Below, in pieces: positions 1 to 63,799 of a DNA stretch of 64,000 nt. The translations under genes and the position numbers were made by a program. The notes under the pieces are model-generated. The model saw nothing but the letters and a program-made list of their open reading frames with translations, was not told the origin of the DNA and did no database searches. The stretch covers positions 335,296,001 to 335,360,000 of the forward strand of contig OZ024741.1 of NCBI GenBank assembly GCA_964016885.1, in the 5' to 3' direction. Position 1 is the first letter of the stretch. Each line of letters opens with the position of its first letter. Origin of the DNA: Eledone cirrhosa (lineage: Eukaryota).

Positions 1-161
1 GAACATAACTTAACAAAGGTACTTATATAAGATTACAATGGAAGGGTTTTAGATAAATATAAACATTTAAAAATAGTTTTGCTTCATAGAACTAAGGGCA
101 GTTTCAGGCAATTTGGTGTCATGGGCTAAAATACTGGGAAAATTACAATAACCCTTGTTAC

Positions 162-271
162 TAGCTCATTCTAGAATTTCATAAAAGATTTTTCTTATGC
201 TTCCCTCCATTTATTGCAATAAATGGAGAGAAGCATAAGAAAAGTCTTTTATGAAATTCTAGAATGAGCTA
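162..271. repeat. 110-bp spacer-less palindrome
   Basis: tagctcattctagaatttcataaaaga...ccatttattg|caataaatgg...tcttttatgaaattctagaatgagcta; centre 216/217, 2 mismatched pairs. Confidence 0.9.
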
Positions 272-1635
272 TAAAAAGATTACAGTGGCTGTCATGTTAC
301 TTATTTAACAACTTAATAGTTATAGTGGTTTCTTCTGTTCCTGCACTAAACCATTTTGTTAGGTGGTGCAGTGCAGAACTACCGTTGACTGAGTAAATAA
401 ATTGACTAAATAACTAACACTGGTTTTCTTGACCATAAACAAATGAAAGTCAAAGGCAACTTTTTTTCTCTTTTTTTTTTTCGTTATTTTTTGAAAATAA
501 TAAAAATAAAAAAAAAATTAGCAGGATTAGAAAATTCAAAGACTTGAAAGTGAAACAAAAAATTAGCAATTATAATCATAATAATGTTCAGCATAAAGTC
601 TAACATATAAATTCAATTGTTTACATAAAGGAAACCTTCATTTGTATTCACTGCTCTATAACACTAGCATAACACAAGGCTTTAAATAAAATAATTAAAT
701 AAAATATGATAAATTATGATAAAATGTTATAAAATAAAATAAATTGTAATAAAATAAAATAAAATACAATAAAATGTAGTACAATGAAATGAAATGAAAT
801 AAAATAAAAAGCCATGTTTTCACACAATAAACCAAGAAACTGTAGTGAAATGAAAAGAATGTATTATTTAGAACCTATTGCTTACTGTGCCACTATGCTT
901 CATTTCATGACAAACGCCAGGAGGAAAAATGAAGGTTGTGATGCTTGCAGGAAGTAGCATGGTGGTTGTAACTCTATGGCTGGTTTACTCTGCTTTGTTC
1001 TTACTTAAGAAAAACGTAAAAAAAAAAATAAAAAAAATAACCATTGTTCTTCATAAGCAATTTGTTTCATTTCATTTCAATATATTGTAGTGGGCTGGTT
1101 CCTTCTCAAAAATAATTCTTTTCTTACTCCAGATATCATTGTTCTCAGAATAGTTTCCATTTTCTCTTGTCCTTTAAATATTCTCGAACCTTTAATACAA
1201 TATCTCCTCTGTAAAATTCTATTCCTCAAATCCTGTATATTTCTACTCTCATTTGAAATATTTATCTTATATATTTTCTTTGTTTAAATACTTACATTTT
1301 CCTCTTTCATAAAATGTGAGATTGCTTCTATAAATCTTTTGTTGGGGTTTTGCAATTCTTCATTGTACTATGATTATGTTTTCAGCACAGATAAAACAGG
1401 AAAAATATCAGCAGATTGGAATAATATAATTTTTTTTCTCTTTTGTTGACAAGTTTAATATATTTCACTCTTCAACTAAGATGGCATTATTCAGTCCATT
1501 ACTAGTTTAAATAATAACTACTGCATGATCCATTGTTTTACAACTGGAATAATTAATAGCATTCTGTTTCATCACGTTTCTTCACACACACATAAAAATA
1601 TAATGCATATGTGCATACAAATATATATATTCTGA

Positions 1636-13844: not shown

Positions 13845-14315
13845 TAAGGGGTCAACAGAACAGGGATGTGCGGATCACACCATGGTCTGTCGGTTGTGAA
13901 GCAGATAAAAGGAAGCACTCAACGACCTGTATAAGTGGTACAAGACAGAGCATTATATATTAATAAAAGATCAGAGGCCATATTCAGTTGATTCAGGTTT
14001 ATTTAAAACTCTGTTATACATATTTCACTGAGGACTATCAATTATAATAGCCATGTACAGGGGCTGGCCATCAAAGAAAGAACACCACGCGTTTGGCCGG
14101 CCCCCTGTATCATGAAAAGAAAATCTTTTGGGGGGGAAATTATTGGATTTTTCCAAATTTATAACTTTCTTAGGAACTTTCAATGTTTTTTTAGGTTTTG
14201 CTGTCTGAAGAGCTCAGGCTATCTTATTTGATATCCCTCAGTGAAATATGTATAACAGAGATTTAAATAAACCTGAATCAAATGAATATGGCCTCCAATC
14301 TTTTATTGATATATA
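13845..14315. mobile_element. Tailed fold-back element in microsatellite (Penelope-like pseudo-LTR pair)
   Basis: Inverted arms 13954-14052 / 14217-14315 plus inner IR 14052-14070 / 14094-14114; unpaired tail 13845-13953; hammerhead-like core and AATAAA in the right arm; flanked by (GA)n and (TA)n. Confidence 0.65.
14201..14258 (+). ncRNA. Candidate type I hammerhead ribozyme
   Basis: ctgt-CTGAAGA-gctcagg...cctcagt-GAAA-tatgta-TA-acag; stem I ctgt/acag, imperfect stem II, short self-complementary stem III. Confidence 0.5.
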
Positions 14316-15741: not shown

Positions 15742-15770
<29 letters not shown>

Positions 15771-15773
<3 letters not shown>

Positions 15774-15963
15774 GGAACCAGTAAGACCCCGACAGCTGAG
15801 CTCAAGCCATTTCGACGGCTAATTCAGTCCAGAATTAGCCGTCGAAACGGCTTGAGCTCAGCTGTCGGGGTCTTACTGGTTCCTATTACCCACTCTACTA
15901 CCTCAAGTATTGAGTACTTTGGTGCGTTATGGTCCACCTGGTTCCTTACCACACTTCCTTCGT
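15771..15963 (+). mobile_element. Tailed hairpin element, family A, copy 1
   Basis: Hairpin 15771-15886 (about 57-bp arms) + 77-nt tail, within (TA)n; homologues at 48389 and 63626. Confidence 0.8.
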
Positions 15964-16533
15964 TATATATATATATATATATATATATACATTTGTTTGC
16001 ATAAATCGACCTCAGTAATTTACTGGTAATTACTTTATTATATTACATATAATAAAATGTTCTTCTTAGAAATGGCACCATGTCACCTTAATTGTGACAG
16101 ATGGGCAGATTTGACAAACCTCATAACATTTTTGTTCTCATAGAATTCAGGAAACAAATCAAAATGCTGCCCTTGATTTGAACTGTATTCTTCCTCCATA
16201 TAGATCACTTTTGACCAATAAGTTGGGGGACATATTTTAAACCAATAGTAACATTTTCATATTAGTATTTAACAAATTTACAATATTTTTGGTTTTGGCA
16301 TAATCAAAATAATGGTTTTGTGTACAATTTGGCAGAGAAAACGATATTTTATTTCTTGCATTCTGTTTCTTTTTTATTTTAAATCTCTTGCCAAAAATTA
16401 TATTTTCAGTATATTATGTTGGCAGCAGCTCCAAAGTTTTGGGAATTTTGTTTTTAATGACCAACCAGTGAAACAGTATATTTTTGAATAAATAAATTCA
16501 CTTTTTTCTTTTTTCATTTATCAATGTTGACAG

Positions 16534-28533: not shown

Positions 28534-29009
28534 CCAAACACTGCTAACAATATCATATTTTAATTTACGTATGTTTCACCCTTAATATTAAAAGCTCAAT
28601 ATTAGGAATCTTCAGAATTAAATAACATGTAACTACCTTAAACACAACATTTCGTCCAAAATATATATCTTATCTGGGCAATGAAAATTTTAATATTTAT
28701 ACTGAATTTATCGTGCAAAAAAGATATATTGCTTATAACTTTGATTATAATATTCACATAATGCATGCCTATTTGAGTGCCCAAGTGAACAATTTTAGTA
28801 ATTATAAAGTGGTAAGTACTATTTCTTAGTATCATGCTGCACTTTTTTAAATGTAAACAAAATTGCCCTGGTATGATATATTTTGAGGCGAAATGTTGTG
28901 TTTAAGTTAGTTACATCTTATTTAATTCTGAACATTCCTAATATTGAGCTTTTAATATTAAAGATGAAACGTACGTAAATTAAAATATGATATAGTTAGC
29001 AGTGTTTGG
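28534..29009. repeat. Fold-back / MITE with about 135-bp terminal inverted repeats
   Basis: ccaaacactgctaac...aaaatatatatc (28534-28668) vs gatatattttg...gttagcagtgtttgg (28875-29009). Confidence 0.85.
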
Positions 29010-38386: not shown

Positions 38387-38930
38387 ATGATTTTCTTTTG
38401 GTCGTTTTGGAAGCCTCAACAATGCAGATGGGTAAATCTCCAGGTAACAGAATCCGGTGGTGAAGAGAGAGATGTAAGGGAATGTAGAATGAGATGTATA
38501 GTGTGTAGAGGAACGTAGGAAAAAGCGTAAAAAATAAAAATAATAACACGAGATAGAGTTACCTTGGGAGAGATTTAATTGTCCCTATATTTCGAATTCC
38601 CATCAATCAACTGGGGGAGTTTTCCAGTGGAGGAAAGTTATCTGCTGGAGAGGAGCAGTATGTGGCCTCTGCTGTCCGCGATTTGTGTTACACACAAAAA
38701 TACAGTTTTATTTTTTACGTTCTTTCCTACGTTCCTCTACACACTATTCATCTCATTCTACATTCCCTTACATCTCTCTCTTCACCACCGGATTCTGTTA
38801 CCCAGAGATTTACCCATCTGCATTGTTGAGGCTTCCAAAACGACCAAAAAAAAATCTTATTATTCCACAATGCTTCAAGCAAACTTCAATACTCTCTTAT
38901 ATATCTTCAATACTCAATATATACCTTCAA
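38387..38930 (+). mobile_element. Tailed fold-back element in (TA)n
   Basis: About 150-bp inverted arms 38387-38539 / 38706-38856, ~165-bp spacer, unpaired tail 38857-38930, TA runs on both sides. Confidence 0.75.
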
Positions 38931-47847: not shown

Positions 47848-48210
47848 TTAAGCCAAAATCTCAATTTGGGGGTATATAAGCTAGACTGACTAAAATAAGT
47901 AAATTTTACTCACAAAAAGTATTTTTTGAAAATAACTTTTAATTTATATATATGTATATATATATATTCATTTTATTAAGGCTAAATAGAAAGTCTTGTT
48001 ACTCTGGAGTTTCGCCTGTTTATCATAGGGTCATCACACAAGAACTCTTAGAACTATTTAGCCTTAATAAAATGAATATTAAAAAACTATATATATATAT
48101 GTTAAATTTAAGCCAAAATCTTGTTTTGGGGAGATATAAGGTACTAGACTGACTAAAACAAGTCAATTTTACTCATAACTCTTTTTAAAAAATAACTTTT
48201 TAATTAATAT
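47843..48210. repeat. Direct duplication of ~105 bp (47843-47950, 48103-48210)
   Basis: taagccaaaatct...tagactgactaaaa.aagt.aattttactca...aaaataactttt occurs twice. Confidence 0.75.
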
Positions 48211-48388: not shown

Positions 48389-48393
<5 letters not shown>

Positions 48394-48593
48394 AACGAGT
48401 AGGACCCTGACGGCTGAGCTCAAGCCGTTTCGACGGCTAATTCTGGACAGAATTCTGGACAGAATTAGCCGTCGAAACGGCTTGAGCTCAGCTGTCGGGG
48501 TCCTACTCGTTCCTATTACCCACTCTACTACCCTAAGTATTAAGTACTTTGGTGCGTTATGGTCCATCTGGTTCCTTACCACATTTCCTTCGT
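48389..48593 (+). mobile_element. Tailed hairpin element, family A, copy 2
   Basis: Hairpin 48389-48516 with a 12-bp duplicated centre (aattctggacag x2) + tail, within (TA)n. Confidence 0.8.
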
Positions 48594-53665: not shown

Positions 53666-53785
53666 TGTAATTATAAGGAGGCTTCTTTTTTTTAATGATG
53701 AAATACTTTAAAATGAAGTAAAAGATAATCTTTAAAATATAAGAATCATCAGAGAATTCTTATAATTTTTCATATATATATATAT

Positions 53786-53838
<53 letters not shown>

Positions 53839-53954
53839 GTGGTGCTGACACCGAGGAGACCACTAATCATGGAAGTACTCAATGCATGAGGAGATGCAGA
53901 GTAGGCATAGAGATATGTAAAATTTTGATCGTGGCACCACAGTCAGGATTTTAC

Positions 53955-54030
<76 letters not shown>

Positions 54031-54133
54031 AATTATAAGAATTCTCTAATGATTCTTATATTTTAAAGATTATGTTTTACTTCATTTTAAAGGATTTCAT
54101 CATTAAAACAAAAGAATCCTCATTATAATTACA
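53666..54133. repeat. Large inverted repeat including mirrored microsatellites, with a nested tailed hairpin (53835-53962)
   Basis: Arms 53666-53771 / 54027-54133; (TA)n(GA)n left, (TC)n(TA)n right; inner hairpin 53909-53962. Confidence 0.8.
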
Positions 54134-54741: not shown

Positions 54742-55014
54742 AATGAAGTATTTCCGTCGGAAAGGTACAGGCAAAAAGAGTGCTCTATGTAGGCTACAGA
54801 GCTTATTAGTTATGTAATAAACAACATAAGATAATTATTTCATTTACCAGTGGTTTCTTGAAGGCAGATGTTATATCGGTCTTCATGGTGTTTTAATAAA
54901 AACACCATGTTATTTATTCATTCTCACGACTGAAGACAGATATAACATCTGCCTTCAAGAAACCACTGGTAAATGAAATAATTATCTTATGTTGTTTATT
55001 ACATAAATAAATAA
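54742..55014 (-). mobile_element. Tailed fold-back element in (TA)n
   Basis: Tail 54742-54802; near-perfect ~83-bp arms 54803-54885 / 54931-55014; CTGAAGA...GAAA-ccactgg-TA in the right arm. Confidence 0.75.
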
Positions 55015-56065: not shown

Positions 56066-56225
56066 TATATTATAAAGAGTCAGGGCCTGATGGTTGAGCT
56101 CTTGCCATTTCAACAGTTAGTTCCAGACTCTCTGGAACTAGCTGTTGAAATAGCAAGAGCTCAGCCGTTAGGCCCCAACTCTTTATAATATAGCCATACT
56201 CTACTATCCCAAACTGGTACTATTC
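56066..56225 (+). mobile_element. Tailed hairpin element, family B (relative of family A)
   Basis: Hairpin 56066-56192 (loop ctc) + tail; right arm gaactagctgttgaaatagcaagagctcagccgt aligns with family A gaattagccgtcgaaacggcttgagctcagctgt; shared actctacta in the tail. Confidence 0.75.
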
Positions 56226-63625: not shown

Positions 63626-63630
<5 letters not shown>

Positions 63631-63799
63631 AACAAGTATGACAGAGCTCAAGCCGTTTCGACGGCTAATTCTGCATCCAGTATTAGCTGTCGAAACGGCT
63701 TGAGCTCTGCCGTCGGGGTCATACTTGTTCCTATTACCCTAAGTATTGATTACTTTGGTGCGTTATGGTCCATCTGGTTCCTTACCACATTTCCTTCAT
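63626..63799 (+). mobile_element. Tailed hairpin element, family A, copy 3
   Basis: Hairpin 63626-63734 (10-bp deletion in the left arm) + tail, within (TA)n. Confidence 0.8.

What the first reader, a model, noticed from the sequence alone, without database searches (positions are those of the whole stretch)
15771..15963. Family A tailed hairpins: the two arms co-vary perfectly between copies
Seen: three copies (15771, 48389, 63626), each (TA)n + ~57-bp hairpin + 65-77-nt tail + (TA)n. Left/right arms read ggaacCagtaAgac / gtcTtactGgttcc, ggaacGagtaGgac / gtcCtactCgttcc and ggaacAagtaTgac / gtcAtactTgttcc. Two positions each take three different Watson-Crick pairs, and copy 3 has a third compensated pair (Agagctc/gagctcT). 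Inference: one arm is re-copied from the other at mobilisation (fold-back synthesis) or homogenised afterwards, or pairing is strongly selected. The fold point is nearly fixed, so the ~190-bp unit behaves as a discrete non-autonomous, TA-targeting element. This is the best candidate for an undescribed system here.
Basis: partly seen in the sequence, partly recalled or inferred. Interest (0 to 1): 0.75.

Follow-up and report, generated by a model that had tools for sequence, protein, structure and literature searches.

The report
Penelope stubs joined at RNA start
These hairpins are short, very abundant insertions of a Penelope-like jumping gene into TA repeats, and their arms match likely because both cut DNA ends copied the same RNA up to its likely capped start and were then joined, which is a known kind of element but a testable clue to how such elements copy themselves.

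Summary
The three hairpins and their matching arm variants are real, but they are not a new self-contained element. A tail 22-mer has 27,567 genome matches. Long copies continue into a 719-aa RT + C-terminal GIY-YIG ORF with the motifs of Hydra-clade Penelope-like elements. The three 'co-varying' variants are subfamily alleles also carried by long copies. Arms agree at those sites in 58/60, 61/63 and 62/64 copies, yet other changes hit one arm only (63 cells against 4). The fold point is not inherited: 36 distinct junctions in 44 copies, with either arm reaching further (18 against 17). That fits two target-primed cDNAs, not fold-back. Inner ends pile up at an initiator-like A, preceded by a G absent from long copies (3,253 G against 650 A; 226 against 618 one base upstream). 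This likely marks a copied 5' cap. No RNA data were available. The scan reached the same reading before on other DNA of this genome.

The parts
15749..15773 (.). (TA)n target, left side; its last bases are shared with the TAT that follows the inner priming site
15774..15825 (-). Copy 1 short (left) arm: inverted copy of element positions -80 to -131 (0 = last base of the tail); inferred cDNA primed at the inner site
15822..15825 (.). Copy 1 junction: 4-nt microhomology shared by both arms
   Evidence: w1: left end -131, right end -141, overlap 4
15822..15963 (+). Copy 1 tailed (right) arm: element positions -141 to 0, sense to the ORF of long copies
15826..15826 (+). A at -137 in an initiator-like word; inferred main RNA 5' end (many other copies carry an extra G in front of it)
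15836..15870 (+). 3' half only of a predicted type I hammerhead (stem II 3' strand, GAA, stem III, predicted cut after 15866, stem I 3' strand); the 5' half exists only in long copies
15884..15963 (+). 80-nt one-sided tail = distance between the two fixed element ends; in tandem parents it runs on into the ORF
15892..15915 (+). Predicted 4+4-bp bulged hairpin starting 9 nt behind the inner end; a twin starts 7 nt behind the outer end in parents only
   Evidence: folded on L082; the first hairpin alone is not better than shuffles, z -0.4; the twin z -2.5
15964..15989 (.). (TA)n target, right side
48392..48593 (+). Copy 2 (second subfamily): arms end at -136 and -134 with a 10-nt duplicated filler; 80-nt tail
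63629..63799 (+). Copy 3 (third subfamily): 9-nt deletion in the left arm, 12-nt deletion in the tail
56075..56221 (+). Older copy of a sister family with the same layout and a G before the same initiator-like word

Best explanation
The tailed hairpins are minimal insertions of a Penelope-like retrotransposon that carries the motifs of the Hydra clade, and each likely forms when both ends of a cut (TA)n target prime reverse transcription on the element's RNA at two fixed sites 80 nt apart, both copies likely run off the likely capped RNA start, and the two new ends are joined head to head. Shown: the hairpin sequence is the pseudo-LTR/5' leader of a 3.5-kb RT + GIY-YIG element; two fixed outer ends, each followed by TAT in the parent; a new junction at most insertions; either arm may be the longer; inner ends pile up at -131 to -141; an extra G at -138. 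Inferred: nicking by the element's endonuclease, priming through TAT microhomology, one RNA (or sister RNAs of one source locus) serving both arms, the extra G being the copied cap, and end joining by host repair. Because the priming sites lie only 57 and 137 nt behind the RNA start, the shortest product is the commonest; long copies would arise when priming uses the same sites in the downstream repeat of a tandem transcript. The stubs lack the sequence upstream of the start, the 5' half of the hammerhead and the second bulged hairpin, so they are probably dead ends. Confidence: Penelope-like origin about 0.97; twin priming about 0.8; whole chain including the capped start about 0.65.
For: Parent: open frame L082:3879-6236 reads through the window's arm and tail into a 719-aa protein from ATG 4080 with RWR, DKT, YRDD, CxCx5C, VIY..YIG, CxxC and CxH, matching section 11 of PMC8557442; tandem arrays with a 3.53-3.54 kb period and 349 tail-into-ORF matches. 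Two fixed ends: the inverted arm ends at -77 (with TAT) in 72 of 80 copies with an adjacent inverted arm, of 103 examined (counted); 22 of 22 long loci show probe 1-60 or 1-62 inverted at the other end (loci picked as long or inverted copies, not by their ends). New junctions: 36 of 44 distinct; 1-4 nt microhomology in 20, blunt in 10, filler in 14; short arm further 18, tailed arm further 17, equal 9. Same template: concordance 58/60, 61/63, 62/64 against 0.50, 0.52, 0.38 by chance; in 10 long insertions parsed of 13 given, the own partner arm is the best match in 7, tied in 1, beaten narrowly in 2. RNA start: tailed arms end at -144..-128 in 60 of 103; 27 of 27 long templates have T or C at -138; 9 of 13 arms ending exactly at -137 have a G in front; genome-wide G 3,253 against A 650 at -138, but G 226 against A 618 at -139; 16 of 30 inspected G are not explained by the partner arm (by eye); 7 head-to-head G/G pairs among the first 100 hits, 6 with at most 2 nt between; copies that start at this boundary and run into the ORF (L244, L245, L246 of 30). 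Sister family: G in 7 of 22 short and 0 of 8 long copies. Precedent: a purified PLE protein nicks and extends both strands and starts at two internal RNA sites that define the tail (PMC11167929); an extra G marks the cap at full-length L1 junctions (PMC11702581); Penelope has an initiator-bearing promoter in its pseudo-LTR (PMC2377424).
Against: No RNA data, so the start site and cap are inferred from DNA alone. 30 parsed arms match the template further, to -138..-143; some of this is microhomology, but it requires further starts (for example A at -141) or another cause. 14 of 30 inspected G could come from the partner arm, and about 4 of the 7 sister-family G are ambiguous. The TATA-like word 29 nt upstream is changed in two subfamilies and absent in the sister family. 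In vitro, PAc primed without homology to the target, whereas here both ends precede TAT. The tail is 80 nt against 30-40 nt in print. 23 of 103 copies have no adjacent inverted arm (some are long copies with a distant one) and a few are mixed or rearranged (L004, L016, L141). Pfam and PDB sequence searches found nothing for the ORF, and no tree with named Hydra proteins was built.
Confidence: 0.65

Rival explanations
1. Twin priming as above, but the boundary is not a transcription start: the RT stalls at, or the RNA is processed in, the extended loop II of the hammerhead (or at the AG that resembles a 3' splice site), and the G is a cap-independent terminal addition.
For: The boundary lies in predicted loop II; ends spread over -131..-141; the sequence before -135 is pyrimidine-rich + AG in both families; PLE leaders often hold introns.
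Against: The G is specific to one position; G/G pairs meet with 0-2 nt between them, so no upstream exon is copied; loop II differs between the two families while the initiator-like word is kept; long cDNAs pass through the same structure.
Confidence: 0.18
2. Fold-back (snap-back): one cDNA primed at the tail end folds on itself and is extended on its own strand, giving the second arm.
For: Explains arm identity directly; short inverted words sit at the commonest junction; snap-back after full-length cDNA is documented for R2 (PMC11371274).
Against: The short arm holds inner sequence missing from the tailed arm in 18 of 44 copies and by 600 nt in L141; short arms also carry the extra G; the fixed stop at -80 before TAT needs a separate cause.
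Confidence: 0.1
3. Self-priming on an antisense template creates the head-to-head palindrome (proposal in PMC3846280 for rotifer PLEs).
For: Published interpretation of junction palindromes in PLEs (passages).
Against: The boundary and extra G fit the 5' end of a sense RNA that runs into the ORF; both outer ends are fixed sense-strand sites.
Confidence: 0.04
4. A discrete non-autonomous hairpin element (MITE-, SINE- or retrozyme-like) is copied as a unit, with arms kept alike by conversion or selection for pairing.
For: Very high copy number; a few junctions recur 2-3 times.
Against: 39 of 47 centres are distinct and most recurring ones carry 1-4 nt of microhomology; private changes are one-armed 63 to 4; the variants are alleles of long copies; the hammerhead is incomplete in the stubs.
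Confidence: 0.03

Closest known systems
Hydra clade of C-terminal EN+ Penelope-like elements (Craig et al. 2021, PMC8557442; outline, passages, sections 6, 11, 15, supplement part 2 of 59), including Hydra-1_Obim
   Same: Single ORF with RT then GIY-YIG; RW[K/R], DKT, CxCx5C, CxxC and CxH motifs; (TA)n target; type I hammerhead near the end; one listed family (Penelope-13_HM) has a 5'-truncated inverted copy.
   Different: Unit about 3.5 kb (listed ones mostly under 3 kb); hammerhead core mostly U3-A8 with a loop II of about 35 nt, while every listed Hydra hammerhead has the C3-G8 core and a short loop; the sequence differs from the hammerhead listed for Hydra-1_Obim, so this is another family; the paper does not describe ultra-short hairpin copies in the parts read.
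Insertion architecture of EN+ PLEs: pseudo-LTRs, inverted 5'-truncated copy, one-sided tail (PMC8557442 section 6; PMC3846280 passages; PMC2377424 passages)
   Same: Head-to-head inverted copy, one-sided tail, partial tandems, promoter in the pseudo-LTR.
   Different: Tail 80 nt instead of 30-40; most copies are reduced to the stretch between RNA start and priming sites; the published suggestion was antisense self-priming.
Poseidon_Ac in vitro mechanism (Frangieh et al. 2024, PMC11167929; parts 1-2 of 4 read)
   Same: Both strands nicked and extended in AT-rich DNA; two internal RT starts whose distance is the tail; hammerhead cleavage not needed.
   Different: Other clade; no target homology at the start sites in vitro, TAT microhomology here; run-off at the cap and joining of two cDNAs were not described in the parts read.
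L1 twin priming and cap-derived extra G (PMC11702581, passages)
   Same: Second target end primes internally on the RNA; inversion junctions with microhomology; extra G at full-length 5' ends.
   Different: In L1 the two segments are adjacent and barely overlap; here both arms copy the same stretch, giving a near-perfect palindrome, and both priming sites are fixed.
U3-A8 hammerhead variant of Schistosoma Cercyon PLEs (Cervera and de la Pena 2014, PMC4209133; parts 1-2 of 4 read)
   Same: Same core covariation, long helix II, extra base after A9, palindromic loop III.
   Different: Here helix III is 6 bp and loop II is long; one subfamily has C3 opposite A8; activity untested.
Animal non-LTR retrozymes (bioRxiv 10.64898/2026.07.22.740005; part 1 of 5 read)
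   Same: Short non-coding PLE-derived repeats with hammerhead sequence.
   Different: Retrozymes are head-to-tail units with a whole ribozyme in each; these stubs are head-to-head, carry half a ribozyme and have individual junctions.

Membership tests
EN+ Penelope-like elements | Single ORF with RT and GIY-YIG endonuclease | tested here: met
   719-aa ORF, YRDD at 348, VIY 591 / YIG 606. 2,054 homologues at E<=1e-10, top hit carries PF01541 GIY-YIG; Atlas neighbours carry GIY-YIG and RVT_1. Pfam and PDB searches of the protein itself were empty.
EN+ Penelope-like elements | Tandem or partial-tandem arrangement giving pseudo-LTRs | tested here: met
   L082, L086; arrays with 3.53-3.54 kb period.
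EN+ Penelope-like elements | Inverted 5'-truncated copy and one-sided tail | tested here: met
   80 of 103 copies with an adjacent inverted arm, 72 ending at -77; 22 of 22 long loci. Tail 80 nt, longer than the 30-40 nt in print.
EN+ Penelope-like elements | RT groups with PLE/telomerase RTs in a tree | not tested
   No named reference proteins were held as sequences; no tree built.
Hydra clade | RWK motif and DKT in place of DKG | tested here: met
   RWR at 37, DKT at 117; RW[KR] in 114 and DKT in 112 of 120 listed homologues.
Hydra clade | CxCx5C linker instead of Cx2-5CxxC; CxxC and CxH around the catalytic E and N | tested here: met
   CxCx5C at 572, no Cx2-5CxxC, CxxC at 670, CxH at 698.
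Hydra clade | [quoted passage not shown] | tested here: met
   Only one cysteine between VIY and YIG, read.
Hydra clade | (TA)n target | tested here: met
   TA run behind the tail in 99 of 103.
Hydra clade | Canonical hammerhead in the pseudo-LTR | tested here: inconclusive
   Free fold gives the three-way junction with unpaired core but z -0.25; Rfam finds nothing; core U3-A8 in 36, C3/A8 in 12, other in 4 of 52 long-arm reads (some loci overlap). Long copies of the sister family mostly show the canonical core at the same place. Cleavage untested.
Hydra clade | Length generally under 3 kb | tested here: not met
   Unit about 3.54 kb; the paper gives this as a tendency and lists one 3,045-bp entry that includes an inverted copy.
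MITE / non-autonomous DNA transposon | Fixed internal sequence between terminal inverted repeats, copied as a unit | tested here: not met
   39 distinct centres in 47; parent encodes an RT.
Non-LTR retrozyme | Head-to-tail units each with a whole type I hammerhead | tested here: not met
   Stubs are head-to-head and hold only the 3' half.

The most novel reading that the evidence does not exclude
For this clade the commonest transposition product is a cap run-off palindrome: one RNP primes both target ends on one RNA at two hairpin-marked sites in the 5' leader and copies both to the m7G cap. This would explain the inverted repeat, the tail and the huge excess of tiny copies in Penelope-like elements, show that the template is the capped sense mRNA, and let transcription starts be read from genome sequence alone.
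Probability: 0.55. Interest if true: 0.65.

Novelty: new member of a known kind. Interest (0 to 1): 0.48.

Why it matters
How Penelope-like elements make their inverted repeats and tails is called an open question in PMC8557442 (section 15), and PMC11167929 leaves the steps after priming unvalidated. This family offers tens of thousands of natural products with three sharp coordinates (two priming ends, one run-off end) and a position-specific extra G, so the twin-priming-to-cap model can be tested with one CAGE library and one in vitro assay. In practice such stubs will be mis-filed as MITEs or hairpin RNA genes, and their apparent covariation is a copying artefact, not evidence of RNA structure. 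My searches found no paper holding 'Penelope-like elements' + 'twin priming' or 'Penelope' + 'non-templated G' + 'cap'; the library lacks most subscription papers.

Tried and rejected
Rfam: no hit in the window at gathering score and no hammerhead in L082:3600-4100 at E<=10. Pfam and PDB sequences: no hit for the ORF. Naiad and Neptune were considered first and rejected: the endonuclease is C-terminal and the linker is CxCx5C, not Cx2-5CxxC. Hammerhead cleavage as the source of the short copies: only 4 of 103 tailed arms end at -100..-93, no more per base than the 17 at -127..-101. A spliced or trans-spliced leader as source of the G: no shared sequence upstream of the G in 30 loci. Selection on arm pairing or later conversion: private changes are one-armed. 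A genome-wide count of matched and mismatched arm pairs was not obtained; concordance rests on the first 100 listed places on contig C1 plus the 3 window copies, all but copy 1 of the window selected by an exact tail 22-mer and so biased to young copies. L024 was dropped (spurious left-arm alignment; kept). My strict hammerhead scan of the window gave only two AT-rich chance hits. The initiator consensus TCAGT/TCAKTY is recalled; one search supports only the pyrimidine-purine start and G at +24, +28, +29 (this element has G at +24 and +29, T at +28). Only 1 of 59 parts of the Craig supplement was read, so a listing of this family elsewhere, or in Repbase, cannot be excluded.

Full report
Coordinates. 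Element positions are counted from the last base of the tail (0 = L082:3986 = window 15963). L082 is a natural copy from the own genome, a 3.0-Gb animal assembly.

1. Observation. The three copies are where and as described: (TA)n, hairpin of 110, 122 and 103 nt, tail of 80, 80 and 68 nt, (TA)n. The matched arm variants are there. The pairing is not perfect: one broken pair in copy 1, two in copy 2, a 9-nt deletion in the left arm of copy 3.

2. The family. A 22-mer of the tail has 27,567 exact matches and the reversed control none; a 19-mer about 60 nt upstream of the hairpin centre has 4,974. I took the first 100 listed places plus the 3 window copies. 80 of 103 have an adjacent inverted arm and 72 of these end at the same outer point (counted). 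99 of 103 have a TA run behind the tail. Nine tailed arms run far upstream.

3. The parent. Long copies carry an ORF in the sense of the tailed arm. In L082 a 786-codon open frame starts inside the arm and tail, with a 719-aa protein from ATG 4080. It has RWR, DKT, YRDD, CxCx5C, VIY..YIG, CxxC and CxH, and no Cx2-5CxxC. These are the marks of the Hydra clade of Penelope-like elements in PMC8557442 section 11. Pfam and PDB gave no hit; 2,054 mostly unnamed homologues were found, and 112-114 of the 120 listed share RW[KR], DKT and the cysteine linker. Tandem arrays have a period of 3.53-3.54 kb, and 349 places read from the tail into the ORF. All 22 long loci show the same asymmetry as the stubs, a tailed end and an inverted end about 80 nt shorter. 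Both ends are followed by TAT in the parent, which can pair with a (TA)n target. The hammerhead listed for Hydra-1_Obim is different, so this is another family. No tree was built, so clade membership rests on motifs.

4. What the co-variation is. The alleles of copies 1, 2 and 3 all occur in long copies. In the parent they lie in an internal loop of predicted stem I, where they have no partner. In the stubs the two arms agree at the diagnostic sites in 58/60, 61/63 and 62/64 copies against 0.50, 0.52 and 0.38 expected (permutation test: 91 shared cells against a maximum of 48 in 2,000). At all other sites the arms differ in 63 cells and share a variant in 4. So both arms are copied from one template at insertion and then decay separately. 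Long insertions agree: own-arm identity 0.94-1.00, best match in 7 of 10, tied in 1, beaten narrowly in 2 young copies.

5. The junction. Centres are distinct in 39 of 47 copies. Of 44 junctions parsed on both sides, 36 are distinct; 20 have 1-4 nt of microhomology, 10 are blunt, 14 have filler. The short arm reaches further inwards in 18, the tailed arm in 17, equal in 9. Fold-back from the tailed strand cannot give the first class without later deletion, and fold-back from the short strand cannot give the tail. Two separately primed cDNAs explain both, and a purified PLE protein does nick and extend both strands from two internal RNA sites whose distance is the tail (PMC11167929).

6. Why the arms stop where they do. 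Tailed arms end at -144..-128 in 60 of 103 copies. The A at -137 sits in a pyrimidine-A-GT word (the TCAGT/TTAGT initiator consensus is recalled). All 27 long templates have T or C at -138, yet 9 of 13 arms ending at -137 have a G there. Genome-wide the G form has 3,253 matches and the A form 650; one base upstream the ratio reverses, 226 to 618. By eye 16 of 30 G are not explained by the partner arm and 14 are ambiguous. Seven of the first 100 hits form head-to-head G/G pairs, six with 0-2 nt between, which excludes a copied upstream exon. An extra G is the accepted sign of a copied cap at L1 junctions (PMC11702581). Three of 30 ORF-continuing copies begin at this boundary (L152). A sister family, found from window 56075 (394 matches), has a different loop II but the same word, with G in 7 of 22 short and 0 of 8 long copies, about 4 of the 7 ambiguous. 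Against: 30 arms match the template to -138..-143, the TATA-like word is not conserved, and no RNA data exist for a direct test.

7. Hammerhead and bulged hairpins. Long copies fold into a type I hammerhead shape with unpaired core (z -0.25; Rfam silent). The core is U3-A8 in 36 of 52 long-arm reads and C3/A8 in 12; U3-A8 is a known PLE variant (PMC4209133). The stubs hold only the 3' half. There is no pile-up of ends at the predicted cut (4 of 103), and the subfamily with the mismatched core still spread, so cleavage seems not to be needed, as in vitro. Two similar 4+4-bp bulged hairpins are predicted 9 and 7 nt behind the two ends; this lead came from earlier scan notes and I checked only position and fold, in one family.

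8. Mechanism. Shown: parent, two fixed ends, new junctions, arm symmetry, boundary, extra G. Inferred: double nick in (TA)n, priming at both TAT sites of the 5' leader, run-off at the cap, trimming of a few bases, end joining. The stubs lack upstream promoter sequence and the second hairpin and are probably dead.

9. Novelty. A new family of a known clade with a known architecture; the run-off-to-cap reading was not found in three literature searches. Earlier scan notes on other DNA of this genome reached Hydra origin and twin priming (seen after my own reading was entered) and the capped start (seen after my counts); they are not independent evidence. Papers seen: PMC8557442 (outline, passages, sections 6, 11, 15, supplement search and part 2 of 59), PMC11167929 and PMC4209133 (parts 1-2 of 4), bioRxiv 10.64898/2026.07.22.740005 (part 1 of 5), PMC3846280, PMC11702581, PMC11371274, PMC8384218 and PMC2377424 (passages).

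Verdict: observation partly confirmed; a known kind of element; interest 0.48 for the testable mechanism.

Noticed in passing
window 56075-56221: Older hairpin of a sister family; its long copies mostly have a canonical hammerhead core and a TCAGT word at the same boundary.
   Followed up: partly
window 54806-55010: Another (TA)n-flanked fold-back repeat with a hammerhead-like core on its right arm; probably a further Penelope-like family.
   Followed up: no
window 154-278, 13962-14307, 28534-29009, 38389-38856, 47967-48076, 53678-54121: Further local inverted repeats with arms of 23-150 nt, several beside TA runs; hammerhead-like cores in 13962-14307 and near 28534-29009.
   Followed up: no
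L004 (G000:C1:491520-494541): Left arm starts in loop II next to TA, runs about 800 nt upstream, folds back about 130 nt and joins a tailed arm at -138: a third priming point or a template jump.
   Followed up: no
L152 and L245/L246: Copies that start at the boundary, run into the ORF and then jump to a second copy starting at the boundary again, as if the RT jumped between RNAs.
   Followed up: partly
L185, L189, L192, L195, L200, L212: Junctions filled with runs of A between the two arms.
   Followed up: no
L021/L022, L023/L024, L027, L214: Stubs of this and related families nest in each other's TA flanks, sometimes back to back.
   Followed up: no
L024 (G000:C1:5866406-5869427): A tailed arm from -124 is joined to the 3' part of a different element with a similar endonuclease frame.
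   Followed up: no
G000:C1:91476610-91487256 and C1:437200354-437210966: Four-unit tandem arrays with 3.53-3.54 kb period; candidate source loci.
   Followed up: no
L032:5530-9132: A 45-bp tandem repeat of 3.6 kb that is open in several frames.
   Followed up: no
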